A stretch of 64,000 bases of DNA from Candidatus Poseidoniaceae archaeon (GTDB taxonomy: Archaea; Thermoplasmatota; Poseidoniia; Poseidoniales; Poseidoniaceae). Made by a program: the position numbers and the translations under genes. How positions within the stretch are numbered: position 1 is the first letter of the stretch; each line of letters opens with the position of its first letter. The notes beneath the pieces are model-generated. The model worked only from the letters and a program-made list of their open reading frames with translations, had not been told where the DNA came from and made no database searches. The stretch spans positions 47,130 through 111,129 of the forward strand of contig CALHIR010000010.1 of NCBI GenBank assembly GCA_938030705.1, in the 5' to 3' direction. Shown here piece after piece: positions 606-58,195 of this stretch.

Positions 606-5273
<4,668 letters not shown>

Positions 5274-5277
<4 letters not shown>

Positions 5278-11735: not shown

Positions 11736-11817
11736 GACCCGACCATGGACAGGTGGAACTTGTAAGTGTCGGCAAGAAAAGCAGGGCGTTGTCCTTTTGA
11801 ACCGCTGCCCAACATGA

Positions 11818-21660: not shown

Positions 21661-21669
21661 GGTGAACTG

Positions 21670-22401: not shown

Positions 22402-22404
22402 TGC

Positions 22405-23646
22405 ATGTCAGAACAAATTTTGGAACAATACGGAAGAGTGACCATTTACACCGAAGCCAATCACCCTTCTCCAATCTACCATGTTGAGGGTGAAATCCAG
22501 GCCAATCCATACGGTGATCTTGCCGCTTTGTTTGAAGACGATGCCCTTGAAGAGGTGATGTACAACGGCGGAACCCAATGTGTGAAGGTCGCCCACCGGA
22601 ACCATGGAATGTGCCGAACCAATATTTGGATTGACGATGAATCCGGCCTTCAAATCGCCAAGAACATCGCCTCATTCACCAACGTGCCTTTGGGTGATGG
22701 TCCTGGGCTTGTGCCCATCTTCGACGGCCGTCTTCCCGACGGGTCCCGTGTCAACGGAACCATCCCTCCGGTCTCGCCTGACGGGCCAACGCTAACGATT
22801 CGTAAGTTCAAGGAAGACCCGCTCACCATGATCGACCTCGTGAACTTCGGCACGGTGAATTCCCGCTTGGCCGCCATGATGTGGGTCTGGATTGAAGGGC
22901 TTGACAGTCGTCCAGCCAACTTTGTCATCGCAGGTGGAACCGGTTCAGGTAAAACCACGACGCTGAACTGTCTCGGCATGTACATTCCGTGGTCCCGTCG
23001 GCTTCTGACGGTCGAAGACACCGCTGAATTGCAAGTCTATCACGACCACTGGCTCCGTATGGAAACTCGCCGTGAGCGCCCCGATGGAACCCAGGAAGTT
23101 GACATGAACGATTGCCTAAAGTCAAGCCTGCGTATGCGACCTGACCGCATCATCGTCGGTGAAGTTCGCGGACCGGAGTGCGCCACTTTACTCACGGCCA
23201 TGAACACGGGACACGACGGTTCTTTTGGCTCGCTCCACGCCAACACGGCTCAAGAAACGGTGACTCGTATGATCAATCCACCGATGAGCGTACCGCCCAT
23301 CATGCTGAGCGGTCTCGACCTCATCATCATTCAAGCCCGGCTCCACGTCAACGGAAAAACGGCCCGAAAAATCACCGAAGTAGCAGAAGTTGCTGGGATG
23401 GAAGGCGACAAACCTCGTCTGAACGCCATTTGGAAGTACAATGCTGCAACCGACCAAATTGAAGAAACTGGCATTCCATCCAAACTCCGGGAAACCATCT
23501 GCAATGCAGCTGGCGTCACCCCCGATGTCTTCGAGAGGCATGTCGCACAACGACAAGCCATCATTGAGGACCTCTGCCAGCGTGGTATTTCAGATATCCA
23601 AACGGTGACTTCGGTGGTGCAGAACTTTTACGCACAGCAGCACTGA
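22405..23646 (+). CDS. type II/IV secretion system ATPase (TadA/VirB11/FlaI family)
   Basis: 413 aa. Walker A (IAGGTGSGKTTTLN), Asp box, Walker B (DRIIVGEVRG), His box (GHDGSFGSLHAN). Confidence 0.85.
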   Translation: MSEQILEQYGRVTIYTEANHPSPIYHVEGEIQANPYGDLAALFEDDALEEVMYNGGTQCVKVAHRNHGMCRTNIWIDDESGLQIAKNIASFTNVPLGDGPGLVPIFDGRLPDGSRVNGTIPPVSPDGPTLTIRKFKEDPLTMIDLVNFGTVNSRLAAMMWVWIEGLDSRPANFVIAGGTGSGKTTTLNCLGMYIPWSRRLLTVEDTAELQVYHDHWLRMETRRERPDGTQEVDMNDCLKSSLRMRPDRIIVGEVRGPECATLLTAMNTGHDGSFGSLHANTAQETVTRMINPPMSVPPIMLSGLDLIIIQARLHVNGKTARKITEVAEVAGMEGDKPRLNAIWKYNAATDQIEETGIPSKLRETICNAAGVTPDVFERHVAQRQAIIEDLCQRGISDIQTVTSVVQNFYAQQH

Positions 23647-23647
23647 A

Positions 23648-25384
23648 TCATCCATTCAGGCGGTTGAGCAGTTCATCAACACGGTCGATTTTTCCTCGGA
23701 TACGTGCAAGACTCTCCGAGGCATCGGACACCGATTCTGCAACTTCTCTTTCCTCGTCGGGCGAAGAGACTGGGTCTGGTTTGAAACTGGCAGCGAGCGA
23801 TTTCAACTCGGTCACAATGGCATCAACTTCCGTTTCGGTTACCAAAACACCCGGTGCGATGCGTGGAATCTCACTGGGTGAGATATAACCGAGTTCAGCA
23901 CCCAAGATACCTGCACAGGCCAACACTCGTGGGCGAAGTTGGGCGGTGTTGACATCGTATCCCTTCGATTCAAGGAAGCGAATCACGAGCGCTTGCTGGG
24001 CTTCATCAAAGCCTTCTTCCCCAGATTCAAGGATGGTTTGAACGAGTTCCTCAAAAGAGGCGATGTTGCGTTCGAGACGCTCTATGGTCATGCGCTCGTT
24101 TTCCGGCATGTGGACCGCTCCGCGATGGAGGATTCTCATCATGCGCTGGCGACGCTGAACAACTGGGTCGTTGAGAGCCTGTGATTCAGCGATTTCAATA
24201 TGGAGGTCAAACAGGGCATGCAAGCGCCCGGAGACGCTTGGAACACGGAGGTCAAGGTTCAGGTCTCTTCCTTCTTGCTCGAAGGCCATTCGTGCCTTCA
24301 CGACGTCCGTTGCGTGAAGTGCGAGAATGTTCTCTAATCGGTCTCGCAGGGTGCTGCGAACCTCCTCAAACCGTCGCAGAGCTTCTCGTTCGCTCCAAGA
24401 TTGCGGCAAGGCAATCGCCGCATTGCTTTCGTTTTGAACTTTGAAATCAAGTTCCATGATCATCTGTGCGACCGCTTGATGCACCTGCGGGAGGTCGGTG
24501 GCAAAACCCTGGCTTCGCAAGGATTGAATGAAGGCGTTCATGTCCTCTTGATTGGTGGTCGAACTGACCATAAGGAAATCACGGGCCATGGCATGGATTT
24601 CTGCGGTCCGCTCCCGGAGTTCAATCAATGCGGTTTCGACTTCAAGGCTGTGGGTTTCATCTCCGCTTGTATGTTGAATCATCGGCGGTACGTCGCTGGT
24701 GTCTTCGGCTGGTTCAGGGCGAAGTTGGTGTTCAAGTTCGGCATCGCTTCGTGAGGATGAAACATCGTGGCCGATGCTGGCAAGGTCTTCTTTGAGGGAA
24801 ACCTCCTCCTCAAACGTCCATCCTTCGTCATGGCCTTCCACAAAGGTCGAGACGGTCTCTTCCAATGTTTCGGGGGCTTGGGGCGCCATCACAGCGGCCG
24901 CTTTTGGTACGCTGACGGGTCCACGAGGTCTTCGGAGGCTTTTCTTGACTTTGCCCCACGCATTTTCTTGCGAGGCCAGGACGCCGGCGACCCGAGCGAG
25001 GAGGGCTTGTTTATTTCCAGAAAGCGTGAGTTCGAGGTCTTTGCACATGGCGTGAAGCTCGTCTTTGGTCATCTCGTCAAGGCGTTCAATGGCGAGGGAT
25101 TTGGGGTCGTGGTTCAAATGAAGGTGCAGTCGCTGCCTTCTCGCCTTGATGGAACCTGACTTTTTAATTCCGAACAGGCCCAAAATCTCTCCCAAGTCGC
25201 TGTTAGGGATGCTTCGTAGTCCAGCAGGCGAAAAATCCCAATCGGGGAAAATGAGATGTTGAATCAACCGTGCACGCAAGGATTCAACCGGTCCGGATTT
25301 AGCTATCCCGTGTTCTTGGGCGAGGGTTTTCAGATCGTCAAAACGGGCTTGGTAGAGTTGGCCCAACAACGCTGATGTGTCCAT
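23648..25384 (-). CDS. SAP-domain-containing coiled-coil protein
   Basis: Two SAP-like helix-extension-helix motifs (LKTLAQEHGIAKSGPVESLRARLIQHL; MTKDELHAMCKDLELTLSGNKQALLARVAGVL). The long acidic/helical remainder has no further family match. Start trimmed to Met33. Confidence 0.5.
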   Translation of the reverse strand: MDTSALLGQLYQARFDDLKTLAQEHGIAKSGPVESLRARLIQHLIFPDWDFSPAGLRSIPNSDLGEILGLFGIKKSGSIKARRQRLHLHLNHDPKSLAIERLDEMTKDELHAMCKDLELTLSGNKQALLARVAGVLASQENAWGKVKKSLRRPRGPVSVPKAAAVMAPQAPETLEETVSTFVEGHDEGWTFEEEVSLKEDLASIGHDVSSSRSDAELEHQLRPEPAEDTSDVPPMIQHTSGDETHSLEVETALIELRERTAEIHAMARDFLMVSSTTNQEDMNAFIQSLRSQGFATDLPQVHQAVAQMIMELDFKVQNESNAAIALPQSWSEREALRRFEEVRSTLRDRLENILALHATDVVKARMAFEQEGRDLNLDLRVPSVSGRLHALFDLHIEIAESQALNDPVVQRRQRMMRILHRGAVHMPENERMTIERLERNIASFEELVQTILESGEEGFDEAQQALVIRFLESKGYDVNTAQLRPRVLACAGILGAELGYISPSEIPRIAPGVLVTETEVDAIVTELKSLAASFKPDPVSSPDEEREVAESVSDASESLARIRGKIDRVDELLNRLNG

Positions 25385-25495
25385 TGATGCCCCACCTCTG
25401 CGGCTTTTCCCGCATTGAAAGCATATATGTCTTCGCTGTCCGACCATGCTAAGAGTGCAGGTTCTGGCGGCTGTTTGCATATGCCGAGAGGGTTG

Positions 25496-31890: not shown

Positions 31891-33909
31891 TCAGCCATGA
31901 CGCCCAAAGTGGTGGTCCAAACTATCAATGGAGATTCGCAACGATGTCGGGCGTCCATGGACGCAGGCCCAAGGGTTTTGAATTCGGCGCATGTCATCAA
32001 GGAGGCGTCGCATTTCGGGTAAGGAAAGCGATTCATTGGCTTTCACGGCCCCTCGACAGGCGTTCATGAAGGCGATGTGGTCTTTCTTTGCTTCCATGGT
32101 TTCAAGCGGGCCACCATCAAGCGCTAAATCTTGAAGCAAATCGAGAAGGAAGGGTTTGATTTGGTCGCCCCCGAGGAGTTGCGGCGAGGCATTCAACACC
32201 CACATCTCTTTCTCTTTTGAGAGGTGGAACCCAAGGTCATGGAGCCGCTCATGATGTGCATCGACGAGGGCGGATTGCCTCGCATCGAGGTTCAGAGGAA
32301 GCGGAGAGAGCCGTTGTTGTGGCTCCCACGCCTGGCCACTGTGCCGCAATCGTTCGTATCGGACACGCTCGTGCAGGGCGTGCTGGTCGATGAGGAGCAA
32401 CTCGTCTTCAGCTTGGACAAGAATGTAGGAGTCCGCAAATTGTGCCAAAGGTTCCATGTGCGGAAGATCGTTCAAGTCTCCTTCGAGAGGGGCTTCTTCG
32501 CTCGGCCTTGACGTGGACCCAGTACCTGCATGTCGGTGCAGGGCGCGTTCAGCAGAAGAAAGAGGTGCAGCCATTGGTGCTGAAGGAAGGTTTGGGAGAA
32601 CCCCTTGTCCAAGAGGGGACGCTGACACAGGTCGCTCCTTTTCCGCCTTTGCTTGTTCTTCCGCTTCTTGGCCAACGAGGTTCAATTGCCGACCGGCAGC
32701 AAGCGCCCAGGCCGGTGGCCGAACGGAAGCTGTGGCGGTCTTGCCCTCCGGTTTTGCCGTCATGCCCGCCGCCGTTGAGATGGAGGCGTCAACCGTGGTT
32801 TCAACAGGCGGTCCGGTAAAGTAAGTTTCAACTGGTTTAGCAATCGATCCGCCTGAGAGTCCTTGAAGGCCAGGGATTTCACCCGTCGCATCGGGCTCGG
32901 TCGGCACGGCTTCAAGGGTGTAGGCAATGGCTCGTTCAAGCCGCTCCAAAACTCGCCAAGAATGACGAAGACGCACTTCCCGCTTCGTTGGATGGACGTT
33001 CACGTCCACTTCCTCGGGAGGGCATTGGAGGTTCACCACGGCCAACGGGTGGCGGCCTTGCATAAGGCGCGTTTTGTAGCCTCGGCGGATGGCTTGCAAA
33101 AACGGGCCTGCGCCCACAGGACGGCGGTTGATGAGAACGTGGATGTCGTCTCCCTTTCCTCGCGTGATGTCGGGTGTGCTGATCCACCCGCTCCAGCGTT
33201 CCTCGCCGGGGGCCTCCTCATCTTCGGGGGGTAATTTGAGTTCAACCAATTCAGTGGCCTGCGCACCCATGATGTCGTAAAGTCGGTCAAGCATGTTTTC
33301 CGTCGCCGGAACATTGAGCAGTGTTCTGCGTTCAGTTTTCAGGTGGAAACCGCAAGTTGGATGGGCAAGTGCATGGTCAACAACCACGTCCACGATTCGG
33401 GCCGTTTCTGTTTCTGGTCGTCGTTGGAACGCGAGTCGCGCAGGGGTGTTTTGAAAGAGATGTTCGACCGAAATGATGGTTCCGTTGGCCATTCCGTAGG
33501 GCTGGGCTTCGGACTTAATTCCGTCCTCCATCACGATGCTTGCACCCTGCGAACCTTCGGGTTTACTGGCTATTTTGAGGCGAGAGACCATACCAATGCT
33601 GGCCAACGCTTCACCCCGAAAACCGAGCGAGAGAATGGAGGCCAAGTCTTCTTTGCTGCTGAGTTTGGAGGTGGCGTGCCGGTCAAGGGCCAGGGAAAGG
33701 TCAGCTTGAGCAATCCCGCTGCCGTTGTCTTCAACCTCAAGACGGTCAAATCCGCCCCGTTCAACGGTGATGACAATGGAAGTTGAGCCCGCATCGAGGC
33801 TGTTTTCAATCAACTCTTTGACCACCTGTGCGGGGCGTTCGACAACTTCACCCGCTGCAATGAAACCGATGGTGGCTTCATCCAGCTGCCTGATTTTGTC
33901 TGGCTTCAT
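31891..33909 (-). CDS. mutL: DNA mismatch repair protein MutL
   Basis: 672 aa. GHKL ATPase N-terminus (VVKELIENSLDAGST, DNGSGI, GFRGEALASI). Pro/Ala-rich linker. Dimerisation C-terminus. Confidence 0.9.
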   Translation of the reverse strand: MKPDKIRQLDEATIGFIAAGEVVERPAQVVKELIENSLDAGSTSIVITVERGGFDRLEVEDNGSGIAQADLSLALDRHATSKLSSKEDLASILSLGFRGEALASIGMVSRLKIASKPEGSQGASIVMEDGIKSEAQPYGMANGTIISVEHLFQNTPARLAFQRRPETETARIVDVVVDHALAHPTCGFHLKTERRTLLNVPATENMLDRLYDIMGAQATELVELKLPPEDEEAPGEERWSGWISTPDITRGKGDDIHVLINRRPVGAGPFLQAIRRGYKTRLMQGRHPLAVVNLQCPPEEVDVNVHPTKREVRLRHSWRVLERLERAIAYTLEAVPTEPDATGEIPGLQGLSGGSIAKPVETYFTGPPVETTVDASISTAAGMTAKPEGKTATASVRPPAWALAAGRQLNLVGQEAEEQAKAEKERPVSASPLGQGVLPNLPSAPMAAPLSSAERALHRHAGTGSTSRPSEEAPLEGDLNDLPHMEPLAQFADSYILVQAEDELLLIDQHALHERVRYERLRHSGQAWEPQQRLSPLPLNLDARQSALVDAHHERLHDLGFHLSKEKEMWVLNASPQLLGGDQIKPFLLDLLQDLALDGGPLETMEAKKDHIAFMNACRGAVKANESLSLPEMRRLLDDMRRIQNPWACVHGRPTSLRISIDSLDHHFGRHG

Positions 33910-36560
33910 GTTCGCTCCTCCATGTCATGTTTCAGGGCATAAAGGACCTCGAGGGCTTGACGCGGGCTCAGATCGTCAACATTGGTCTCTTGCAGGCGTT
34001 GCATCATTCGCTCAACACTTGGCGACAACGCAGGCGGCGTTGGCGAAGAAGTTTTCATGGCTGCAGCTGCGAAATACCCCATCAGGCTGGCTTGGCCCGA
34101 ATCTCTTGATTGTGGTGCGCCGTGTTCACCCGCTTTTGCACCTCCTGCTTGCTGCTCAAGGAAGGCGAGTAAGTCGCTTGCACGCTCCACTACGCTTCGG
34201 GGTAGGCCAGCCAAAGCAGCGACTTGAACACCGTATGAATCATCGCATGGCCCATCTGCAACGGTGTGGAGGAAGCGAAGTTTCCCGTCGACTTGAGCCA
34301 CTTGGACATGGACATTGCACAACCCGTTTACCTCGCCCTCCAGGCCGATGAGTTGGTGGTAATGAGTGGCAAAAAGCGTCCGGGCACCGATTCTTGAGCA
34401 GATGTCCTCCGTGACGGACCACGCAATGGAAAGGCCGTCGAAAGTGGAGGTGCCTCGTCCAATCTCGTCCAACAGGACCAGGGAACGCTGCGTGGCCCGC
34501 TTGAGGATGTGGGCTACCTCGATCATTTCCATCATGAAGGTCGAACGCCCCCGCTTGAGGTCGTCACTTGCTCCTACCCGTGTAAAAATCCGGTCAACCA
34601 ATCCCACCTTGGCTTGCTTGGCGGGAACAAAACATCCGGCCTGTGCAAGAACAGTGACCAAGGCCACCGTCCGAAGGTAGGTGGATTTCCCACCCATATT
34701 GGGGCCCGTGATGAGCAGAAAACTCCGCTTTTGGTTCATCGAAACATCGTTGGGGACAAAACCGGACTGAGTTTCCAACACGGGGTGGCGAGCGCCATCA
34801 AGTTGGATTTGATGCTTGTCCGTGATTTCGGGTTTGGTCCAATTACGTTCCCTGCTCACCGATGCGAAGCACTGCAACACATCGATGGAAGCGACCCGTC
34901 GGGCGATGTCAGCCAAGGTCGCCGCCTGAGTGCCGCAATAGGTGCGAAGTTCGAGGAACCGGCGGTACTCAAGTTCTTTCAGTTTTGAATCGGCGGTGAG
35001 CAACAAGTCATCCCGCTCAACCAATTCCTCCGTAGTGTAGCGAGAGCCGTTGGTCAATTGTTGCTTCCTTCGCCACGTGTTTGGAACTTTTTCGATGTGC
35101 GCTTGGGTGACCTCGATGAACCACCCCACTTGTCGGTTGTTCTTGACCTTGAGCGAAGGGATAGCCAATTCCTCTCTGAGCCGTTGTTCAAGGTTGGTGA
35201 ACCAAGCCTTTCCTTCTGACGTGACGCTTCGCAAGCGGTCAACTTCCTCGTCCACCCCGGCTCGTAGGAGTCCTCCGTCCCGCAAACCGAGGGGAGGATG
35301 TTCGTCCAAGGTGTTGTGAATGGTCTCCCTCATCTCTTCAAGTTGGTCGAGGCCTTCACTGAGGTGGATGAGGAGTGGGTCCTGGCTGTCATTGCACCAT
35401 TGCACGAGGGCGGGCATCCGCTCAAGGGCATGGGCTGTGGCGACCAAATCCCTTGCATTACTGCGTTGGTAAGCGAGTTGGGTGGCCAATCGCTCCATGT
35501 CTCGGATTCCCTTCAAGGAGGTGCGCATGCCGTCCAACCGGCGAGCCGATCGTGTCAGGGTCGCCACGGCTTGATGGCGCGTTTGAATGGCCTCCGTGTT
35601 GGAAAGCGGATGCAAGAGCCAGGTTTTCAGAAGCCGCCTCCCCATGGCGGTTCGACATCGGTTGAGGGTGGAAAGCAAACTTCCGTCGTATTCCCCTGCC
35701 AAGGTTGACGTCAATTCCAAATTCCGTAGGGTGGTTTGGTCCAACAGCAGGTGGCCTTGTTCTTCCAGAAGTTCAACGTCTTGAAGGGGGATGTCTTGGC
35801 GCATGTGAACCGTCGCGAGGTAGTCAGCTGCGAGGCCTGTAGCCGAAATGGCCAACGGAGCATGGTCCAGGTCCAAGTGCCCCAAATCCGCCACATCAAG
35901 CATGCTTCGCAATCGTTCTTCTCGTTTTGCTTGGCTGAGTTGATGTTGGCTCACCATGGTAGACTCCAAGCGGGGAAAGAGGGGGGCGAGGTGGTCGTTT
36001 TCGGCGTCTTTTGGTGAGATCACAAGCTCGCTTGGTTGCCATCGGAGAAGGTCATCTTGGAGGCGAGTGAATCGTTCGGGCCCCTCGTGTGAACTCGCCC
36101 ACGCCTTCCCGGTGGATGCATCAAGCACGGCGAGGCCCAAGGCATCTGGGCCCAGCACAACACCGGCGAGCAGGGACTGCTCATCACCTTCCAACAACCC
36201 CTCCTCATAGAGGCTGCCGGGCGTGTAAACTCTGGTCGCCACTCGCTCCAGTAATTTGGCTCCAGGTCTCAATTCTTCTTCTTGCTCTGCTACCGTCACT
36301 TTGTAGCCAGCCCGGAGCATGGTGCGCAGATGGTCTTCAAGCCCGTGCCATGGGAAGCCCGCCATGGGGATGGGTTGGTCGGCGTTTTTGTCTCGAGAGG
36401 TCAGCGAAAGGCCAAGCACATCCGCCGCTACTTCTGCATCGTCGTGAAAGAGTTCGTAGAAATCTCCCATTCGGAAGAAGAGAACCGTGTCAGGATGCTG
36501 TTCTTTGATGTCAAAGAACTGGTCCATCATTCCTCTTTTTGACATGGTTGCACCCTCCAT
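33906..36560 (-). CDS. mutS: DNA mismatch repair protein MutS
   Basis: 884 aa. Mismatch-binding N-terminus (FFRMGDFYELF), Walker A (ITGPNMGGKSTYLR), DE (VLLDEIGRGTST), HTH C-terminus. 4-nt overlap with mutL. Confidence 0.92.
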   Translation of the reverse strand: MEGATMSKRGMMDQFFDIKEQHPDTVLFFRMGDFYELFHDDAEVAADVLGLSLTSRDKNADQPIPMAGFPWHGLEDHLRTMLRAGYKVTVAEQEEELRPGAKLLERVATRVYTPGSLYEEGLLEGDEQSLLAGVVLGPDALGLAVLDASTGKAWASSHEGPERFTRLQDDLLRWQPSELVISPKDAENDHLAPLFPRLESTMVSQHQLSQAKREERLRSMLDVADLGHLDLDHAPLAISATGLAADYLATVHMRQDIPLQDVELLEEQGHLLLDQTTLRNLELTSTLAGEYDGSLLSTLNRCRTAMGRRLLKTWLLHPLSNTEAIQTRHQAVATLTRSARRLDGMRTSLKGIRDMERLATQLAYQRSNARDLVATAHALERMPALVQWCNDSQDPLLIHLSEGLDQLEEMRETIHNTLDEHPPLGLRDGGLLRAGVDEEVDRLRSVTSEGKAWFTNLEQRLREELAIPSLKVKNNRQVGWFIEVTQAHIEKVPNTWRRKQQLTNGSRYTTEELVERDDLLLTADSKLKELEYRRFLELRTYCGTQAATLADIARRVASIDVLQCFASVSRERNWTKPEITDKHQIQLDGARHPVLETQSGFVPNDVSMNQKRSFLLITGPNMGGKSTYLRTVALVTVLAQAGCFVPAKQAKVGLVDRIFTRVGASDDLKRGRSTFMMEMIEVAHILKRATQRSLVLLDEIGRGTSTFDGLSIAWSVTEDICSRIGARTLFATHYHQLIGLEGEVNGLCNVHVQVAQVDGKLRFLHTVADGPCDDSYGVQVAALAGLPRSVVERASDLLAFLEQQAGGAKAGEHGAPQSRDSGQASLMGYFAAAAMKTSSPTPPALSPSVERMMQRLQETNVDDLSPRQALEVLYALKHDMEERT

Positions 36561-40450: not shown

Positions 40451-42193
40451 ATGCCTGTAGGTCTTCCCCCTCGTGGAGGTCCACTTGGGCGAACCAGAGG
40501 CCGGATTTCAGCGAGTTCGCTGACGACCTATTTGCGATGTCCAAAACAGTGGCTCTTTGCCTATCAAATCGGTCTTCAAGGGCCCACGCGACCCTCACAA
40601 ATCTTGGGTATCGTGCTTGAAGACGCTCTCTGCGAGTTGTTGATGATGCACCCACCAAAGGTTTCCAGTTTTGAGGAGTTGAACACTTGGGCCTCTGGCA
40701 ATGTCGCCGACGTGGCTCAGCGAGCTTTGGCTACCGGCGAGACGATGTGGGATGAGGTGCTTTGGAAAACAAGCGAAGACGCATGGGATGAAGTCGATGT
40801 AGCCTCGTTGGAGGAACGTCTCGCTGGCGGTTTGAGCCTGTTCTATGAAGAAGTCCACGCATGCTTCAATCAAAACGGAGGACCCTACCTCCATCAACGA
40901 AGAACCGGTCAACAGCCGTTTGTGGTTCCCGAACCTGCTCAAAGCACCGTGCCGGTCTTCCCGCTTCCCGACAAGGTGAGGGATGTTGAGAAACGAGCAT
41001 GGGCAGCCTCTTCTTCGCCGTCATGGTCGGCACCCGAAGCCCCCATCACCTGGCATGAAGCCTGGGAGTGTGCTCGACCGTGGTTCAAAGACCCGCGTGT
41101 CCATCAGCCCCAACGCCTTTACCACCCGGATGGTTGGGCCTCAGGTGAATTGGATATGGTCCTTCGTTGGGACGGTCAGGTTCGAATCGTCGATATCAAA
41201 TCAGGTTCTCCGGGCTCGGCTTTTGCCTCCTCTCTTGAACACCAACTCCGGTTTTACGCATGGTTGTGGCATGAAACTCATGACGGTCAAACCGTCAACG
41301 GCATGGAAGGCTGGTACCTCAACGGCGGGCATCGCGTCCCGTATGCTCCGCCGGCCAAGAACGAGATGGCGGGGCTCACCTCCACCTTCCACGAACACCA
41401 CCGCGCCATGCAGCGTGCTGAAAAAGGCGTGAAGTCCTTCCCCGTGGCTCCTTCAGAGGCCTGTCAGGGTGAAGCAACAGGTTGTGGCTGGTGTGCTGTG
41501 TCTCGCACGGCCGCTGGCGAATGGTCCGTGCCCGAGCATCTCTCTTGGATTACGACCCTGCCGGAGGTGTCCATGAAAACCCCCTATGCGCCGCTTGGTG
41601 ATGTCCAAGGGCGCGTCGCCGTCCGAGGTCGTTTAACCGGGGCTTGGGGGCCGATGCCCAATCATTTCGCTGAACCCGTTTTGGGTGCGGTTTTGGTCGT
41701 TGGTCAGCAACACATCATCGTTGAGGAAAGCGAACCCGGTGCATTTTCTCAACTGCATGACCACATGGAACAGGAGATCGTGCTGGTGGACGCACTTCCG
41801 GGGGTGTGGCGGGACCAACCTCGTCTCTATGTTGATGCCACCACTGTTTTGCATTCTCACGCCGATGTGGATAAGGCAACGCTCCCGGAACTGACACGTC
41901 TGGGCCTGCTTCGGACACGAACCAACGTCAAGGGGCATGTCATCGGCATCCGTCGCCGTTCCGGTACGCGTGTTGATGGAAAACCATGGGGGATGCTCAC
42001 GCTGATGCTCTGGGATGGACATCATCTCGCCGAGGTGGTGGCCTTCGGTGCCAGCATCAATCAACGCTTGCTGAGTTTGCGACCCGGCGATGGCGTGGCG
42101 ATGACGGGCGTCGAACTTGGGTGGCGGTCGGGTCTTCTGCAACTCCGTATCGACAATCGGAAAACCCGATTGGAAACTTTCACTCAACATTGA
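40451..42193 (+). CDS. Cas4/RecB-family Fe-S PD-(D/E)xK nuclease fused to C-terminal OB-fold domains (paralog A)
   Basis: 580 aa. N-terminal Cys motif SASSLTTYLRCPKQW. Nuclease core (GELDMVLRWDG...RIVDIKSG, QLRFYAWLW). C-terminal Cys triad CQGEATGCGWC. Then two RPA/SSB-like OB-fold stretches (VAVRGRLTG..., GHVIGIRRRSG...WDGHHLAEVVAFG). Confidence 0.7.
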   Translation: MPVGLPPRGGPLGRTRGRISASSLTTYLRCPKQWLFAYQIGLQGPTRPSQILGIVLEDALCELLMMHPPKVSSFEELNTWASGNVADVAQRALATGETMWDEVLWKTSEDAWDEVDVASLEERLAGGLSLFYEEVHACFNQNGGPYLHQRRTGQQPFVVPEPAQSTVPVFPLPDKVRDVEKRAWAASSSPSWSAPEAPITWHEAWECARPWFKDPRVHQPQRLYHPDGWASGELDMVLRWDGQVRIVDIKSGSPGSAFASSLEHQLRFYAWLWHETHDGQTVNGMEGWYLNGGHRVPYAPPAKNEMAGLTSTFHEHHRAMQRAEKGVKSFPVAPSEACQGEATGCGWCAVSRTAAGEWSVPEHLSWITTLPEVSMKTPYAPLGDVQGRVAVRGRLTGAWGPMPNHFAEPVLGAVLVVGQQHIIVEESEPGAFSQLHDHMEQEIVLVDALPGVWRDQPRLYVDATTVLHSHADVDKATLPELTRLGLLRTRTNVKGHVIGIRRRSGTRVDGKPWGMLTLMLWDGHHLAEVVAFGASINQRLLSLRPGDGVAMTGVELGWRSGLLQLRIDNRKTRLETFTQH

Positions 42194-42215
42194 ACCACCA
42201 TCAAGGCACTGAGGC

Positions 42216-44099
42216 TTGAAAAAGAGTGGGTGCTTTGGTCGTTTCATGCCCGTGCACATGGCCAAGAGAGAGAACGATGCCGTCGGGCCTTACAACCGGA
42301 TGTCGGCCAGTCAAGCCAACACCTACTTGGCTTGTCCCCGCCTTTGGTTTTATCAGAAAGTTTACCGGTTCAAAATGCCCCAAATTCCGGTGCTTTTTGT
42401 CGGGAGGGCGGTTGAGGAAGCCGTCTGTCATGTGCTGCGTGAGTCTCCAGGTTTTATCGTTTCAAACGCAAGCCAAAACGCCATTGGTTCTTCGCCATAC
42501 AACGAGGATGGTCAACCCCTGCAAGGAAAGGAGTACGTTTGGCCAGCGATGGGTTTGATGCCATTTCCCCCCGAAGAATTGCCGCAATCCAGAGCTGCGC
42601 TCGAAGCGTGGGCTATCGAGCGGTGCCGCATCCATCTGCCGCCGGCGTTGGAGCGCATGCGGCTGGAATGGGAAAAGGATGAACGAAAAGCAGGGGAGTG
42701 GAGTCAGGTCGATCCCGACCGATGCATGGCCATGGTTGAGAGCGGCCTCCGATTTCACCTTGATGAAGTTGAACGCTGTTTTAACCAAGACGGGGGGCCG
42801 AACAAAGAGGAGTGGCGTCGAGGTGAACGGGCGCTCTGGCCCGCTCCCGATGGTTTTCCACACCAACCCTTCGAAGGGGGTCACCCCCTCCGTGGCGAAG
42901 GTCATGTTTCATGGACCGAGGCCTGGGAACTCGCGCGCCCTTGGTTCGTTGACCCAAGTGCACCAAAGTTCACCATGAATGCCATTCATCCCGAGCATTG
43001 GTTTCAGGGGGAATACGACTTGGTTTATCGCTGGTCCGGAACGCCGGTCATCGTTGATCTCAAAGCGAGTTTGGGAGCAAACGACCGTTCGGGAGATTAT
43101 GTTGAACAACTCAAGATGTACGCTATGTTGTGGTACGTTACCCACAACCGACAAGAAACGGTTGGTGGTCTCCAAATTTGGTACCTTGGCCACCCCAGCA
43201 TCAAGTCCATCCCCGTCCCCAGTTCGGAGGAGATGGAAGCGATTGAGGCGGAGATGAAAGCCCTCTGGGACGACTTGAAAGACGCCACACCATCACTCGC
43301 TGATTGTCCGCCTGCGCCCAAAGCGATGCGAGGTTTCTCGCCGGGTGGAAAGCCGTCAGAGCCGCCTTCGACATCCCGGTGCGAAGGGTGTGATTGGCGT
43401 GCCGTGTGTCCGGGGGGCGAAGGGACTGACGAACCACGACTTTCGTCTTCCGTTCAACTTCCAAGTTTCAATCAACAAACGCCACTTCAGGAAATTGGTC
43501 TGCTCAACCCACGAGCGACTGTCCGGGGGGAATTGTTCTCAGTGGGCTATGTAAGAGATAACATACCTTTGAGGATGACGTTGAAACAAGGCACCAATTC
43601 GGCTCACATTCAAGTGGTCTCAACGGTCAATGCTGATGGTGAACCAACGGTTGCTGTGCCCGCCATGAAAGGCGCTAAAGTTCTGCTTAAGGACGCCGTC
43701 TTCACCATCAATTGGAAAGGTGAAATCGTTCTGAAAATGGACCCCTTCGCTCGGCTAGAGGCGGACGATGACCCCGATGTGGAATCCTTTGACTTGTTTG
43801 ATTTTCAAGCGAAGCATAACGTTGGTGGCACCGTGATCTACACTTATGAAAAATCAGGTGTTGGTAAAAACGGGAAGGCTTGGTCTCGAAAAGGCCTCAT
43901 GTTGATGGACCATACGGGTGCCTGTAAGGTCGAGGGTTGGGCAGACGACTGGAATTCACAATACGCCATGCTTACGGTTGGCGACGTCGTTGTTATCGCA
44001 AACGTTGGTTTGGATGCGTGGGCTTCCGAAATCCGTTGTGATTATACTCGGAATTCGCGACTGCAAATCATTGAGCGTGTGGACCGCTCAGCCGCCTGA
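42216..44099 (+). CDS. Cas4/RecB-family Fe-S PD-(D/E)xK nuclease fused to C-terminal OB-fold domains (paralog B)
   Basis: 627 aa. Same architecture as paralog A: YLACPRLWFY; GEYDLVYRW...VIVDLKAS; EQLKMYAMLW; CEGCDWRAVC; RPA-like OB fold (MLMDHTGACKVEGWADDW...GDVVVIANVG). The start may be Met15 (about 42258). Confidence 0.7.
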   Translation: MKKSGCFGRFMPVHMAKRENDAVGPYNRMSASQANTYLACPRLWFYQKVYRFKMPQIPVLFVGRAVEEAVCHVLRESPGFIVSNASQNAIGSSPYNEDGQPLQGKEYVWPAMGLMPFPPEELPQSRAALEAWAIERCRIHLPPALERMRLEWEKDERKAGEWSQVDPDRCMAMVESGLRFHLDEVERCFNQDGGPNKEEWRRGERALWPAPDGFPHQPFEGGHPLRGEGHVSWTEAWELARPWFVDPSAPKFTMNAIHPEHWFQGEYDLVYRWSGTPVIVDLKASLGANDRSGDYVEQLKMYAMLWYVTHNRQETVGGLQIWYLGHPSIKSIPVPSSEEMEAIEAEMKALWDDLKDATPSLADCPPAPKAMRGFSPGGKPSEPPSTSRCEGCDWRAVCPGGEGTDEPRLSSSVQLPSFNQQTPLQEIGLLNPRATVRGELFSVGYVRDNIPLRMTLKQGTNSAHIQVVSTVNADGEPTVAVPAMKGAKVLLKDAVFTINWKGEIVLKMDPFARLEADDDPDVESFDLFDFQAKHNVGGTVIYTYEKSGVGKNGKAWSRKGLMLMDHTGACKVEGWADDWNSQYAMLTVGDVVVIANVGLDAWASEIRCDYTRNSRLQIIERVDRSAA

Positions 44100-53432: not shown

Positions 53433-54170
53433 TCATAGAATGTTGGCTTCATCACGAAGCAGTTTTGCGACTTCCGCAGCTGATGCGCCACCCTCGTAGC
53501 TCTTCCCTGCAGGTTTGGCTGGCGGGAGTGAATGGGATACGATGGAGACCGAGGGGGCGGGTGCCTCTATAGAGCGAACATCGACACTCGCTTTCTTGGC
53601 TTGCATGATGCCCTTGACATTTGGCTTTCGGACCTTGAAACCTCCTTTGTCGCACGAGACCACGGCAGGGAGTGGGACGCTGACTTTGGCGTTGCCTCCC
53701 CCGCTTGGCATGGTCACCGAGAGACCACCATCGAAACCAGCACCGATGATGTTCGAAACGGATGCCCAACCCATGCGCTCGGCCACGCCGGGGCCCGTTG
53801 AACCTGCACCCGTGTCGGCTGCGGATTTCCCACAGTAGACCACTTCGCCTCCAAGATCTCCAATGGCTTGGGCTAGGATGGATTGCAGGGCGTTGGAATC
53901 CATTTCACCACCTGCGTCGATGCGAACGATATGGTCCACACCAATCGCTTTGGCGTCTTTGAGAATCTTTTCTGCTCCGGCTCCTCCAACGGTAAGGGCG
54001 GTGACTTCACCTCCCGACGCGTCCCGGTGCTGGAGCGCAGTCTCGACAGCAAATTCGTCGTAGGGGCTCATGACCATCTTGACCGATGAGAGGTCTACTC
54101 GGTCGCCGTTGACCACAATCTTGGCGTTGGTGTCGGGAACTTGTTTGACGAGGACGATGATGTTGGGCAT
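53433..54170 (-). CDS. etfB: electron transfer flavoprotein subunit beta
   Basis: Starts at the internal Met (MPNIIVLVKQVPDT), the typical EtfB N-terminus. The upstream 51 codons of ORF 53433..54323 are an unlikely extension. Confidence 0.85.
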   Translation of the reverse strand: MPNIIVLVKQVPDTNAKIVVNGDRVDLSSVKMVMSPYDEFAVETALQHRDASGGEVTALTVGGAGAEKILKDAKAIGVDHIVRIDAGGEMDSNALQSILAQAIGDLGGEVVYCGKSAADTGAGSTGPGVAERMGWASVSNIIGAGFDGGLSVTMPSGGGNAKVSVPLPAVVSCDKGGFKVRKPNVKGIMQAKKASVDVRSIEAPAPSVSIVSHSLPPAKPAGKSYEGGASAAEVAKLLRDEANIL

Positions 54171-54313
54171 GTGAATCAACTCGAATACTTGAGGAAACCC
54201 ACCCGAAGTCCATTCATGAACCTTGCCACGGTGCCACATGGGCACATCCCTGAGGAGAAGGATTCGGTTTGATTGGTTAGTATTATGAACCGTCTTAACA
54301 CCGGAGAAATTCC

Positions 54314-55165
54314 ATGTCGCCACCGAAGAAAGTTGATGTTAATCCAGACGAGCAAATCGTACTTCGCGAGTGGCGTGAACTGATCGTGGAAAACTACGAA
54401 AATGACATTGCTCGGTTGGAAGGCTTGGAGGAAAGTGTGCAGGGTTTTCATGTTGAACACGCCCTCATGGACCAAAAAGACACGCTCCGTCGCTTCTTTC
54501 ACGAAAAGCCAACGCGAGCCTTGGAACTCGGTTCGAGAATCATGCGAGAACAATTCGACAACCACCATATTCCAACTCGGCCGGTCCTGCGAGTTGTTGG
54601 TCTTTCCGAAAATTACCTCAACCGTGTGGACGACTTAAGGATGCGTGACCGAAACGATTTGGTTTCCCTTGACGTGAAAATCAACGAGGTGTCTCACGCT
54701 TACGGCTGGCTCAAGTTGGCCGTCTACGAATGCATGGACTGTGAATCGCGCGTGGAAGTTCCCCAGCGGCGAGCTCGTGAACGAGAGAGCCCCGTGCTCT
54801 GCCGCCCTTGCCTCAACCAAGCCATGGAGGGCTTCAAGAACACCGATATCCCAAGGAGCTTCATTCGTCCACAAAGTGATTTCCTGATGGTCGTTGAAGA
54901 GTGCAAGTACGAGGATGTTCAGGACATCAGCATGAGTCAAATCACGTACAACAGCGAACATCATCTCATCAACTGTTCAACCCGGAATCAAATTCTTGGG
55001 ACCATCACCGATGATCTGGTCGACCAACTTCGGCCGTCGACCTACATGCGAATCAACGGCATCGTGCGTGTTCAGCCCGTACCTGACCGGACCTTCTCCA
55101 AAGATACCCGTCGCCTTCTCTCCATTGACATCTTGAGCGTCGAGGAACTTCATATTGAGGAATGA
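54314..55165 (+). CDS. MCM N-terminal-domain-only protein (zinc finger plus OB fold, no AAA+ module)
   Basis: 283 aa. AVYECMDCESRVEV...VLCRPC (C4 zinc motif) followed by an OB-fold segment (ILGTITDDLVDQLRPSTYMRINGIVRV) that aligns with the MCM N-terminal domain C. The gene ends 3 nt before an opposite-strand gene, so no ATPase domain follows. Confidence 0.55.
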   Translation: MSPPKKVDVNPDEQIVLREWRELIVENYENDIARLEGLEESVQGFHVEHALMDQKDTLRRFFHEKPTRALELGSRIMREQFDNHHIPTRPVLRVVGLSENYLNRVDDLRMRDRNDLVSLDVKINEVSHAYGWLKLAVYECMDCESRVEVPQRRARERESPVLCRPCLNQAMEGFKNTDIPRSFIRPQSDFLMVVEECKYEDVQDISMSQITYNSEHHLINCSTRNQILGTITDDLVDQLRPSTYMRINGIVRVQPVPDRTFSKDTRRLLSIDILSVEELHIEE

Positions 55166-58123: not shown

Positions 58124-58195
58124 GTTCCTGCTTTCTATCAAGCGAGGGGACATGTTCATGAAGCACCCGCGTGGCAGGTCACGTGAGGGTGTTCT

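What the first reader, a model, noticed from the sequence alone, without database searches (positions are those of the whole stretch)
54314..55165. Stand-alone MCM N-terminal domain (zinc finger plus OB) without the AAA+ motor
The 283-aa product aligns with the MCM N-terminal domain: a helical subdomain, a C4 zinc motif (CMDCES...CRPC) and an OB fold with the conserved ...DDLVD.L.PGD/ST..R..GI.R segment. The gene terminates 3 nt before an opposite-strand gene, so no ATPase domain can follow. Such a truncated MCM could be an origin or helicase regulator (a dominant-negative or loader-like factor), a remnant of an integrated element, or a pseudogene fragment.
Basis: partly seen in the sequence, partly recalled or inferred. 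Interest (0 to 1): 0.6.

Follow-up and report, generated by a model that had tools for sequence, protein, structure and literature searches.

The report
Motor-less MCM N-domain paralogue, Poseidoniales
This is a real, conserved gene of Marine Group II archaea that encodes only the DNA-binding, ring-forming front half of the replicative helicase MCM and no motor; it is probably a non-catalytic DNA-binding accessory protein, of a kind noted once before in haloarchaea but never studied.

Summary

It is neither a pseudogene nor a mobile-element remnant. Orthologues of 249-304 aa occupy the same slot (ETF-alpha, ETF-beta | MCM-N | TyrRS, DUF5611) in all 63 Poseidoniales loci examined, down to about 27% identity. 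dN/dS is about 0.04-0.06. No viral copies were found, and no AAA+ domain lies nearby.

The family keeps the zinc site, the channel-facing beta-hairpin and the elements that make PfMCM-N hexamerise. It has lost the ssDNA-binding MSSB residues and the loop that communicates with the ATPase. It has gained invariant arginine clusters.

Best reading: a ring-forming, duplex-DNA-binding, non-catalytic MCM paralogue acting in chromosome replication or maintenance. This is inferred, not shown.

I could not retrieve the host's full-length MCM myself; a published pangenome table lists Mcm in about 90% of MGII genomes. N-domain-only MCMs were noted in haloarchaea in 2014, so this is a new variant of a known kind.

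The parts
54314..55165 (+). CDS of the 283-aa MCM N-domain-only protein (stop codon included)
   Evidence: ORF list; Pfam, NCBIfam and PDB matches; identical protein P0001 on 16+ contigs
54344..54562 (+). Helical subdomain A (aa 11-83)
54632..55075 (+). OB-fold region with embedded zinc ribbon (aa 107-254; Pfam MCM_OB)
   Evidence: PF17207, 30.8 bits above the 24.8 cut-off
54635..54652 (+). LRMRDR (aa 108-113), family-specific Arg cluster before OB strand 1; R109, R111 and R113 are invariant
   Evidence: Alignments A1 and A2; mean top-residue fraction 0.80 for aa 108-115; only R109 has a canonical counterpart
54731..54811 (+). C4 zinc ribbon (C140, C143, C163, C166), subdomain B
   Evidence: Invariant in 27 sequences down to 24% identity; aligned to the zinc cysteines of Pfu, Tac and Mth MCM
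54764..54793 (+). QRRARERESP (aa 151-160), family-specific basic loop between the two Cys pairs
   Evidence: Most conserved element of the family, 0.81; canonical MCMs share only the Q and the P
54812..54889 (+). Family-specific insertion after the second CxxC (aa 167-192; the AF2 helix 164-176 runs into its first part), poorly conserved
   Evidence: Joint alignment with canonical N-domains; AF2 secondary structure; conservation 0.33
54908..54922 (+). Y199-E-D201-V-Q203, equivalent to the canonical F.D.Q; Y199 aligns with PfMCM F179, the aromatic core of the hexamer interface
   Evidence: Alignments; Y199 and D201 invariant and Q203 at least 90% conserved; role of F179 from PMC4627082
54950..54964 (+). 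Tip of the beta7-beta8 hairpin (aa 213-217), where canonical MCMs carry the allosteric communication loop QE.PE...GG.QP.R; the motif is absent here
   Evidence: Joint alignment; regex check; conservation 0.36
54683..54688 (+). N124-E125, the position of the first MSSB basic residue (PfMCM R124; R/K in Tac and Mth); not basic in this family
   Evidence: phmmer and MAFFT alignments; MSSB definition from PMC3970758
55079..55114 (+). N-terminal beta-hairpin loop VPDRTFSKDTRR (aa 256-267); R259 aligns with PfMCM R234, and K263-T265 with the P238-F240 intersubunit strand
   Evidence: Alignment; conservation 0.75; lower pLDDT, about 70, fits a flexible hairpin
54277..54294 (+). Conserved upstream element TTAGTATTATGAACCGTC (TATA-like TATTAT at -33 to -28 from the ATG); putative promoter of the gene
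   Evidence: Alignment of 25 orthologous upstream regions; sequence. Its function is inferred
54211..54229 (.). Second conserved spacer element CATTCATGAACCTTGCCAC with the palindrome TTCATGAA, on the ETF-beta side of the divergent spacer
   Evidence: a further copy lies upstream of the acyl-CoA dehydrogenase gene (58154-58162)

Best explanation
The gene encodes a non-catalytic paralogue of the replicative helicase MCM that consists only of the N-terminal tier (helical subdomain A, C4 zinc ribbon, OB fold). It arose in the ancestor of Poseidoniales (Marine Group II archaea), most likely by duplication and 3' truncation of a Thermoplasmatota-type mcm gene, and has been inherited vertically at one chromosomal position ever since.

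Proposed mechanism, inferred and not shown: like isolated archaeal MCM N-domains, it assembles into a ring, most simply a homo-hexamer, through the conserved interface elements Y199, G131-W132-L133 and K263-D264-T265. It binds nucleic acid, most likely duplex DNA threaded through or docked on the ring, using the channel-facing beta-hairpin (R259, K263, R266, R267) and two family-specific arginine clusters (LRMRDR; QRRARERESP on the zinc ribbon). Having lost the MSSB residues and the allosteric communication loop, it neither binds ssDNA the way the helicase does nor talks to an ATPase. It would act as a passive DNA-encircling or DNA-marking accessory factor in chromosome replication or maintenance.

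Shown: identity, fold, lack of a motor, orthology, purifying selection, and which motifs are kept or lost. Inferred: oligomerisation, DNA binding and the cellular role.
For: Identity and fold. The protein ends at the last N-domain beta-strand, before the N-C linker.

It is a real, old, vertically inherited gene. There are 59 relatives by word-indexed search and further orthologues of 249-304 aa down to E=1e-17 by exhaustive profile search, with a gap from 78 bits to 64 bits or less before canonical MCMs. 54 loci were found in species-representative genomes, and all but one carry Poseidoniales-type names. Gene order is identical in all 61 loci, plus two deep subgroups. dN/dS is 0.04-0.06 against the closest orthologues, like ETF-beta and TyrRS. 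A conserved TATA-like element lies 28-33 nt upstream.

Conservation pattern. The three most conserved elements are Arg-rich loops (0.75-0.81), and 10 of 31 positions that are at least 90% conserved are Arg, in a net-acidic protein. The PfMCM-N hexamerisation determinants defined experimentally (PMC4627082) align with conserved family residues: F179=Y199, P130-V132=G131-W132-L133, P238-F240=K263-D264-T265, R234=R259. The MSSB positions (PMC3970758) are N124-E125 and S206, so not basic, and the ACL motif is absent and its region is the least conserved.

Origin. Thermoplasmatota MCM N-domains score higher against the family HMM (group medians 69-81 bits) than the best representatives of other lineages (62 bits). 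The best PDB sequence hit is the Thermoplasma MCM N-domain.

Established knowledge: isolated Mth, Sso and Pfu MCM N-domains form hexamers or double hexamers and bind DNA (PMC3970758, PMC4627082).
Against: No experiment or multimer prediction supports oligomerisation or DNA binding; these rest on alignment of motifs, by sequence and not by superposed coordinates. The protein evolves much faster than its neighbours (43-55% identity where ETF-beta, TyrRS and PurF are 75-86%), which is unusual for a core replication factor. It is not next to any replication gene; its fixed neighbours are metabolic and translational genes. OB fold plus zinc ribbon could equally bind RNA. I did not recover the host's full-length MCM, so the 'paralogue' status relies on a published KEGG table and on the general rule that all archaea encode MCM.
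Confidence: 0.42

Rival explanations
1. It works through direct association with the host's full-length MCM. Either it enters mixed rings through the N-tier interface, which would poison or tune the helicase, or it docks head-to-head on the MCM N-face through the zinc ribbons, as a surrogate 'second hexamer', cap or loading aid.
For: The same conserved interface elements (Y199, GWL, KDT, beta-turn) would serve hetero- as well as homo-oligomerisation. In canonical MCMs the zinc subdomain mediates the double-hexamer contact (PMC4627082 introduction), and here it carries the family's most conserved, novel motif, QRRARERESP. Fast sequence evolution is compatible with co-evolution with a partner. 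The closest canonical relatives are Thermoplasmatota-type MCMs.
Against: The family is very diverged from any canonical N-domain (about 15-22% identity; MCM_OB 30.8 bits against 50-126 bits for other MCM N-domains scanned), which makes a precise fit into a canonical ring less likely. It is not linked to mcm or to any replication gene. No host MCM sequence was available to test co-variation.
Confidence: 0.28
2. It is a nucleic-acid-binding protein recruited to a process other than replication, for example RNA or tRNA binding, or transcriptional control of the neighbouring ETF and acyl-CoA dehydrogenase genes. Only the MCM-N scaffold would be retained.
For: The replication-specific features, MSSB and ACL, are lost. 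The gene is fixed between the ETF operon and TyrRS/DUF5611. It shares a divergent spacer with ETF-beta that holds conserved motifs, one of which recurs upstream of the acyl-CoA dehydrogenase gene. Generic OB folds that bind RNA or ssDNA are the next-best structural matches.
Against: The whole 20-kb region is syntenic across the order, so adjacency carries little information. The ring-interface and channel-hairpin residues, which matter only in an MCM-like ring, are the ones kept. The palindrome lies on the ETF-beta side and is not enriched as a general site (5 matches against 1.3 expected; 2 of 100 shuffles reach 5).
Confidence: 0.13
3. It is an antiviral or conflict protein: a decoy N-tier that traps or mis-assembles the MCM helicases of archaeal viruses.
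For: In the database-wide profile search the best full-length hit is an MCM on a tailed-virus contig (P0084: 64 bits, contig context). In the local re-scoring it ranks second (97 bits, behind P0257 at 102.6), and tblastn gives E=7e-13. The protein evolves faster than its neighbours. Viruses of Poseidoniales are reported to encode MCM (PMC10768690).
Against: dN/dS is low (0.04-0.15), with no sign of positive selection at this resolution. The gene is single-copy at a fixed housekeeping locus in every genome, not in a variable defence island. There are no viral homologues of the family. The score advantage of P0084 over cellular MCMs is small and not consistent between the two scorings.
Confidence: 0.07
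4. It is the N-terminal half of a split replicative MCM: Poseidoniales would assemble their helicase from a separate N-tier polypeptide and a separate AAA+ polypeptide encoded elsewhere.
For: I could not retrieve a Poseidoniales full-length MCM with its own N-domain. The candidate groups turned out to be other Thermoplasmatota or of unknown taxon. The protein ends exactly at the domain boundary.
Against: The allosteric communication loop that couples the N-tier to the ATPase is lost, and its region is the least constrained part. The MSSB residues, which PMC3970758 shows are essential in vivo in yeast Mcm2-7 (title and yeast mutants), are lost. The sequence is far more diverged than any functional helicase N-tier. 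No AAA+ gene lies within +/-7-10 kb in 63 loci. Tully 2019 lists the KEGG 'replicative DNA helicase Mcm' in 0.93 of MGIIa and 0.89 of MGIIb genomes, a call this 283-aa protein is unlikely to trigger (35 bits against an NCBIfam cut-off of 940).
Confidence: 0.04
5. It is a pseudogene fragment or the decaying remnant of an integrated virus or plasmid mcm.
For: Extra, divergent mcm copies in archaea often come from integrated elements (PMC3914693). The gene is truncated relative to mcm.
Against: The frame is intact, length is conserved (249-304 aa) and motifs are invariant across the order. There is strong purifying selection. The gene has a fixed housekeeping context with no integrase, tRNA target or composition shift. 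No viral copies exist.
Confidence: 0.01

Closest known systems
N-terminal-domain-only 'outlier' MCM proteins of haloarchaea (Kristensen et al. 2014, Front Microbiol 5:123, PMC3972481)
   Same: [quoted passage not shown] The overall idea is the same: a motor-less MCM N-tier paralogue.
   Different: The haloarchaeal proteins were found in 4 of the 26 haloarchaeal species surveyed. The Poseidoniales gene is in every one of the 63 Poseidoniales loci I examined, always at the same position. Probable relatives of the haloarchaeal type among my hits (P0098, P0102; acidic, 329-341 aa) keep stronger canonical MCM_OB scores (57-58 bits against 30.8) and share only about 32% identity with this protein over about 100 residues. 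The origins therefore look independent. The LRMRDR, QRRARERESP and KDTRR motifs are specific to the Poseidoniales family. I could not confirm that P0098 and P0102 are the published proteins.
Isolated N-terminal domains of archaeal MCM studied in vitro (MthMCM-N 1LTL, PfMCM-N 4POF/4POG, SsoMCM-N, TacMCM-N 4ME3)
   Different: Those are laboratory truncations of helicases; this is a natural gene. It lacks the MSSB arginines (R124/R186 equivalents) and the ACL, and it has an insertion of about 20-25 residues after the zinc ribbon and extra Arg clusters.
Full-length archaeal MCM replicative helicase (NCBIfam NF040949; Pfam PF14551 + PF17207 + PF00493 + PF17855)
   Same: Homologous over the whole N-terminal tier (model positions 19-245 of 682). 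The nearest relatives are Thermoplasmatota MCMs.
   Different: No AAA+ P-loop, lid or winged-helix domains. It scores 35 bits against a family cut-off of 940. It cannot hydrolyse ATP or unwind DNA.
Other AAA+-less MCM-N architectures seen here (MCM-N fused to an HSDR_N nuclease-like domain, 411-426 aa; MCM-N fused to the MCM C-terminal winged helix, 323 aa)
   Same: The N-tier is kept and the motor replaced or deleted. Most also lack the QE.PE ACL motif, which suggests a general rule that the ACL decays once the ATPase is gone.
   Different: They carry an extra C-terminal domain and keep canonical MCM_OB scores (37-99 bits). They are only 19-36% identical to this protein over partial alignments. 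Their taxa were not determined.
Inactive MCM homologue of Methanopyrus kandleri (MkaMCM2, PDB 3F8T)
   Different: From my own knowledge, MkaMCM2 keeps an inactive AAA+ domain and lacks the zinc subdomain. This protein is the reverse: a complete N-tier with zinc, and no AAA+.

Membership tests
MCM N-terminal domain (structural family: subdomains A, B and C) | OB-fold subdomain C matching Pfam MCM_OB (PF17207) above the gathering score | tested here: met
   30.8 bits against 24.8, E=2.7e-7, aa 107-254 against profile positions 4-125 of 126
MCM N-terminal domain (structural family: subdomains A, B and C) | Helical subdomain A: sequence match to Pfam MCM_N (PF14551) | tested here: not met
   No PF14551 hit even at E<=10, whereas most canonical N-domains scanned hit it at least weakly
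MCM N-terminal domain (structural family: subdomains A, B and C) | Helical subdomain A present in three dimensions, and the overall three-subdomain fold | tested here: met
MCM N-terminal domain (structural family: subdomains A, B and C) | Zinc-binding subdomain B with four Cys ligands | tested here: met
   C140, C143, C163 and C166 are invariant in A1 and A2 and aligned to the canonical Cys pairs. Metal binding itself was not tested
MCM N-terminal domain (structural family: subdomains A, B and C) | N-terminal beta-hairpin (beta-turn) with basic residues pointing into the channel | tested here: met
   R259 aligns with PfMCM R234; R259, D264, T265, R266 and R267 are at least 90% conserved across the whole family, and K263 is at least 90% conserved in the core alignment A1
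MCM N-terminal domain (structural family: subdomains A, B and C) | MSSB ssDNA-binding residues (PfMCM R124 and R186) | tested here: not met
   The equivalent positions are N124-E125 and S206, variable across the family and rarely basic. Definition from PMC3970758
MCM N-terminal domain (structural family: subdomains A, B and C) | Allosteric communication loop (QE.PE...GG.QP.R) on the beta7-beta8 hairpin | tested here: not met
   The motif is absent, and the region is the least conserved in the family (0.36)
MCM N-terminal domain (structural family: subdomains A, B and C) | Aromatic residue at the core of the hexamer interface (PfMCM F179, Mcm4 Chaos3 position) and the intersubunit beta-sheet segments | tested here: met
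   Y199 is invariant within Y.D.Q; G131-W132-L133 and K263-D264-T265 align with P130-V132 and P238-F240. This is a sequence alignment only
MCM N-terminal domain (structural family: subdomains A, B and C) | Assembly into hexameric rings that bind DNA | not testable with these tools
   No multimer prediction or experiment was available
MCM replicative helicase (NCBIfam NF040949; Pfam PF00493) | [quoted passage not shown] | tested here: not met
   The protein ends at aa 283, before the N-C linker. There is no PF00493 hit. tblastn with five MCM AAA+ domains finds nothing in the window or in 61 Poseidoniales loci, and the gene tables of L072 and L073 show none
MCM replicative helicase (NCBIfam NF040949; Pfam PF00493) | Whole-protein score above the curated family cut-off | tested here: not met
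   35.4 bits against a cut-off of 940
N-domain-only MCM outliers of haloarchaea (PMC3972481) | Consists of the MCM N-terminal domain only and is encoded alongside a core MCM | tested here: inconclusive
   The N-domain-only architecture is met. Co-existence with a core MCM in Poseidoniales rests on Tully 2019 supplementary file 12, not on my own retrieval
N-domain-only MCM outliers of haloarchaea (PMC3972481) | Common descent with the haloarchaeal proteins (same orthologous group) | tested here: inconclusive
   The likely haloarchaeal-type proteins P0098 and P0102 are about 32% identical over about 100 aa, lie well below the family's score gap, and keep stronger canonical scores. This points to an independent origin, but their identity with the published proteins was not verified

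The most novel reading that the evidence does not exclude
Poseidoniales, among the most abundant archaea of the surface ocean, carry a dedicated trans-acting 'N-tier ring'. This would be a motor-less MCM paralogue that encircles duplex DNA and docks on, caps or licenses the replicative MCM through its re-modelled zinc-ribbon face. It would be a naturally separated version of the double-hexamer/N-tier function that in other archaea and in eukaryotes is built into the helicase itself. If so, it would be a new class of helicase accessory factor and a natural tool for separating N-tier functions from motor functions.
Probability: 0.2. Interest if true: 0.75.

Novelty: new variant of a known kind. 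Interest (0 to 1): 0.5.

Why it matters
MCM is the core of the archaeal and eukaryotic replisome, and its N-terminal tier controls loading, double-hexamer formation, DNA melting and processivity. A natural protein that is only the N-tier, kept under purifying selection across a whole globally abundant archaeal order, shows that this tier has a selectable function without the motor.

The pattern of what is kept (zinc site, ring interface, channel hairpin) and what is lost (MSSB, ATPase-communication loop) amounts to a natural dissection of N-tier functions. It also gives a directly testable hypothesis with a small, soluble-looking protein.

More practically, the gene is auto-annotated either as 'hypothetical protein' or, misleadingly, as 'DNA replicative helicase MCM subunit Mcm2'. 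Counting it as MCM inflates helicase copy numbers in MGII genomes.

The limits are real. The organism is uncultured, the role is inferred, and motor-less MCM N-domains have already been noted in haloarchaea.

Tried and rejected
1. Finding the host's full-length MCM. This took the most effort and failed.
- P0084, the best full-length hit to the family profile, lies on a tailed-virus contig.
- The P0089 clade and 'group A' carry Thermoplasmata/Thermoplasmatota names, and the abundant member P0269 sits next to an Mrp antiporter operon, which is reported absent from Poseidoniales.
- 'Group B' (P0335, 7,754 relatives) includes 'Thermoplasmata archaeon M11B2D'. I recall that genome as a benthic MBG-D type, from my own knowledge.
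- An apparent contig-length match (53,151 against 53,152 bp) was a coincidence.
- An intein-bearing lineage (P0120, P0178; Tsr3-MCM-DUF424-NMD3) could not be assigned to a taxon.
- The tetranucleotide comparison was uninformative, because the Poseidoniales loci are all one homologous region.

2. Mobile-element origin. There is no family member in IMG/VR or in 50,697 phage/virus records. Rejected.

3. Upstream motif as a lineage-wide promoter signature. It is not enriched enough (5 matches against 1.3 expected, 3 of them inside genes). Dropped.

4. Unavailable or empty sources. The broader alignment A2 was too diverse for the locus scan, so A1 was used. The afdb50 fold library was not available. 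The supplements of Raymann 2014, Rinke 2019 and PMC9258230 held no usable MCM table.

5. Literature. Searches found no description of this Poseidoniales family.

6. Pseudogene and split-gene readings were considered and rejected, or made unlikely; see the rival explanations.
Full report
**1. Observation.** It carries the quoted C4 motif (C140-M-D-C143 ... C163-R-P-C166) and the DDLVDQLRPSTYMRINGIVRV segment.

Its stop codon lies 2 nt (not 3) from the stop codon of a convergent gene. That gene is tyrosine-tRNA ligase (NF006330, 310.7 bits against a cut-off of 220). Upstream and divergent are ETF-beta (true start 54170) and ETF-alpha. The long ORF 53433-54323 that appears to overlap the start is only an upstream extension of ETF-beta.

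**2. Is it an MCM N-terminal domain?** Yes.
- Pfam MCM_OB passes its gathering score (30.8 against 24.8 bits, E=2.7e-7, aa 107-254).
- The NCBIfam MCM model aligns aa 26-271 collinearly with model positions 19-245 of 682.
- A profile of 29 family members hits the Thermoplasma acidophilum MCM N-domain (4ME3) at E=6e-11 over residues 7-254.
- An AlphaFold2 model built on the family alignment (pLDDT 84.3, pTM 0.73) matches solved MCM N-domains: Foldseek E about 1e-17 to 1e-18, TM 0.80-0.83 on the target.

So all three subdomains are present: helical A, zinc ribbon B and OB fold C. Subdomain A is too diverged for Pfam MCM_N. In a joint alignment with 21 full-length MCMs, the protein ends exactly at the last beta-strand of the N-tier, before the N-C linker.

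**3. No motor nearby.** The window is ordinary archaeal chromosome. It encodes gyrase B/A, a Hel308-type helicase, an RPA-like protein, MutS/MutL, ABCE1, eIF2-alpha, PurF, ETF, TyrRS and acyl-CoA dehydrogenase, with even composition. tblastn with five MCM AAA+ domains finds nothing in the window or in 61 orthologous loci, about 1.0 Mb in total. The gene tables of the two further loci show none either.

**4. A conserved, vertically inherited gene of Poseidoniales.**
- **Relatives:** the word-indexed search found 59 relatives, about 54 of them full-length (282-289 aa) down to 42% identity. Where a source names the organism it is Candidatus Poseidonia, and JGI auto-names the protein 'MCM subunit Mcm2'.
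- **Deeper members:** an exhaustive profile search of 1.84 billion representatives extended the family to proteins of 249-304 aa at E=1e-98 to 1e-17. After a score gap (78 bits, then 64 or less) it reached only the N-terminal 10-280 residues of full-length MCMs. The deeper members are also labelled Poseidoniales or Poseidoniaceae.
- **Species genomes:** a scan of one genome per GTDB species returned 54 loci. All but one carry Poseidoniales-type names (Poseidonia sp., Ca. Poseidoniaceae, Ca. Poseidoniales, UBA 'Euryarchaeota', 'Methanobacteriota archaeon', 'Thermoplasmatota archaeon'). The exception is a 12.6-kb contig in a 'Verrucomicrobiales' MAG that has the full archaeal gene order and is evidently mis-binned.
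- **Synteny:** gene order is identical in every locus: PurF, PKD protein, metallo-beta-lactamase, then ETF-alpha and ETF-beta on the minus strand, then MCM-N, then TyrRS and DUF5611 on the minus strand, then WD40 and ACAD. This includes three deep subgroups at about 27-36% identity, one of them on a Tara Oceans contig. These are orthologues at a locus fixed since the ancestor of the order.
- **Selection:** pairwise dN/dS is 0.04-0.06 against the closest orthologues (up to 0.15), the same as ETF-beta, TyrRS and DUF5611. Synonymous sites are near saturation, so the ratios are approximate.
- **Promoter:** a TATA-like element (TTAGTATTATGAACCGTC, 54277-54294) is conserved 20-37 nt upstream of the ATG in 25 orthologous spacers.
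- **No viral copies:** none occur in 2.9 million viral contigs or 50,697 phage/virus genomes.

The pseudogene and integrated-element readings are therefore rejected.

**5. What is kept and what is lost.** I took experimentally defined N-tier elements from two papers on PfMCM-N and mapped them through the alignments.

Kept:
- The four zinc cysteines are invariant.
- The aromatic residue at the heart of the hexamer interface, F179 (the Mcm4-Chaos3 position), aligns with invariant Y199 in Y.D.Q. Several canonical MCMs also have Y there.
- The two segments that form the short intersubunit beta-sheet, P130-V132 and P238-F240, align with G131-W132-L133 and K263-D264-T265.
- The basic beta-turn residue R234 aligns with R259. 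This beta-turn projects farthest into the channel and is needed for hexamer rather than pentamer formation.

Lost:
- The MSSB ssDNA-binding residues. R124 aligns with N124-E125, K129 with Y130 and R186 with S206; these positions vary and are rarely basic.
- The allosteric communication loop (QE.PE...GG.QP.R). Its position is the least conserved part of the protein (0.36).

Gained:
- R111 and R113 in LRMRDR.
- The loop QRRARERESP between the cysteine pairs.
- A variable insertion of about 20-25 residues after the second CxxC.

Across 27 sequences down to 24% identity, the three most conserved elements are LRMRDR (0.80), QRRARERESP (0.81) and the hairpin loop VPDRTFSKDTRR (0.75). Ten of the 31 positions that are at least 90% conserved are arginines, in a protein with 38 K+R against 50 D+E.

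**6. Mechanism (inferred).** Isolated archaeal MCM N-domains form hexamers or double hexamers and bind DNA only as rings (PMC3970758, PMC4627082). The ring-interface elements and the channel hairpin are retained, together with new invariant arginine clusters, while the elements that serve ssDNA handling and ATPase coupling are lost. The most economical reading is a ring-forming protein that binds duplex DNA and has no catalytic role: an accessory factor of chromosome replication or maintenance.

Whether it acts alone or on the host MCM cannot be decided here. In the second case it would act as a mixed-ring subunit or as a head-to-head cap through the re-modelled zinc face. I give these 0.42 and 0.28.

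Two facts counsel caution. The protein evolves markedly faster than its neighbours (43-55% identity where ETF-beta, TyrRS and PurF are 75-86% and ACAD 95-97%). And it is not linked to any replication gene.

**7. Origin.** With a family HMM, Thermoplasmatota-type MCM N-domains score higher (group medians 69-81 bits) than the best representatives of other lineages (62 bits). The best PDB sequence hit is the Thermoplasma N-domain. This fits duplication and truncation of the lineage's own mcm.

One viral MCM (P0084, on a tailed-virus contig) also scores high: 64 bits and the best full-length hit, 97 bits and second, with its contig context. A viral donor cannot be excluded.

**8. The host helicase.** This is the main gap. 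My three homology searches and cluster look-ups recovered large MCM groups that proved to be other Thermoplasmatota:
- one is linked to an Mrp operon, which is reported absent from Poseidoniales;
- one contains 'Thermoplasmata archaeon M11B2D', which I recall as benthic MBG-D, from my own knowledge;
- an intein-bearing lineage is of undetermined taxon.

Published support exists. [quoted passage not shown] The 283-aa protein is unlikely to trigger that call, since it scores 35 bits against a 940-bit NCBIfam cut-off.

Together with the loss of the ACL and MSSB, this makes the split-helicase reading unlikely (0.04). It is still not formally excluded.

**9. Comparison with what is known.** Kristensen et al. 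2014 (PMC3972481) reported that four haloarchaeal 'outlier' MCMs of 312-315 aa consist of the N-terminal domain only and cannot be helicases, with function unknown. The kind is therefore known, though only as a passing remark.

The Poseidoniales family differs in several ways. It is present in all 63 loci examined and fixed in position, it is much more diverged, and it has its own motif set. It appears unrelated in origin to the likely haloarchaeal-type proteins in my hits.

I found no description of it in the searchable literature. Databases call it 'hypothetical protein' or, misleadingly, 'MCM subunit Mcm2'.

In passing I saw further motor-less architectures: MCM-N fused to an HSDR_N nuclease-like domain, and MCM-N fused to the C-terminal winged helix. 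Most of these also lack the ACL motif, which suggests the ACL decays whenever the ATPase is lost.

**10. Verdict.** This is a new, order-wide variant of a scarcely described kind of protein. Interest is moderate (0.5): a clean natural dissection of the MCM N-tier in an ecologically dominant archaeal group, with a clear and cheap experimental path, but with no functional data and with a precedent in haloarchaea.

Noticed in passing
proteins P0104, P0105, P0133, P0151, P0154, P0176, P0188: A recurrent family of 411-426 aa in which the MCM N-domain (MCM_N + MCM_OB) is fused to an HSDR_N/HSDR_N_2 domain (the N-terminal domain of type I restriction R subunits; a PD-(D/E)xK-like nuclease fold, from my own knowledge) in place of the AAA+ motor. 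Several 50%-identity clusters exist, so it is a real family. Taxon and function are unknown.
   Followed up: partly
protein P0114 (323 aa), also P0098 and P0102 (329-341 aa): Other motor-less MCMs. P0114 joins MCM_N + MCM_OB directly to the MCM C-terminal winged helix. P0098 and P0102 are acidic N-domain-only proteins, probably the haloarchaeal type of PMC3972481. Most motor-less forms lack the QE.PE allosteric-loop motif.
   Followed up: partly
L008 (contig SRR34348095_12470), gene 10001-12058: P0084, the best full-length hit to the family in the database-wide profile search, is an MCM on a tailed-virus contig (tape-measure protein, Gp80, SNF2/DEAD helicase, PD-(D/E)xK nuclease). It is only about 28% identical to MCMs of known archaeal tailed viruses, and its host is unknown.
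   Followed up: partly
L070 10001-14260 and L071 3776-6892: An MCM lineage with a variable intein load (880 to 1,621 aa; exteins 60-72% identical) in a conserved Tsr3-MCM-DUF424-NMD3 arrangement. MCM-DUF424-NMD3 is shared with another Thermoplasmatota MCM group (L009). The taxon is undetermined; it could be the Poseidoniales helicase.
   Followed up: partly
window 54211-54229 and 58154-58162: The palindrome TTCATGAA lies inside a strongly conserved element of the ETF-beta/MCM-N spacer and recurs about 40 nt upstream of the acyl-CoA dehydrogenase gene. It may be an operator for the functionally linked ETF and ACAD genes. Whole-window enrichment is weak (5 matches against 1.3 expected).
   Followed up: partly
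L015 (NZEQ01000080.1, 12,626 bp): A contig filed under 'MAG: Verrucomicrobiales bacterium isolate ARS100' has the complete Poseidoniales gene order, with 80-98% protein identity to the window's genes. It is almost certainly an archaeal contig mis-binned into a bacterial MAG.
   Followed up: yes
window 18065-19747 and 19732-20658: An RPA/replication-factor-A-like ssDNA-binding protein (NF005554, 254 bits, below the equivalog cut-off of 447), followed by an overlapping 308-aa ORF with no family match. This could be an RPA-associated partner.
   Followed up: no
window 624-5277, 31891-36560, 40451-44099: Bacterial-type DNA gyrase B/A, MutL and MutS, and two large PD-(D/E)XK-nuclease proteins (AddAB-like) in an archaeal chromosome. 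Gyrase in this group is noted as probably a horizontal acquisition in PMC3914693.
   Followed up: no
window 23648-25480 (-): A 610-aa protein with a SAP domain (PF02037/PF18953). From my own knowledge this is a DNA-binding motif known mostly from eukaryotes. It lies next to a type IV pilus/archaellum-like ATPase and two T2SSF membrane genes (21073-23646).
   Followed up: no
window 54314-55165 compared with its neighbours, across L001-L064: The MCM-N protein diverges two to three times faster in amino-acid identity than its housekeeping neighbours at the same phylogenetic distances, yet keeps a low dN/dS among close relatives. Constraint appears concentrated in a few motifs. No current explanation fully accounts for this.
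   Followed up: partly
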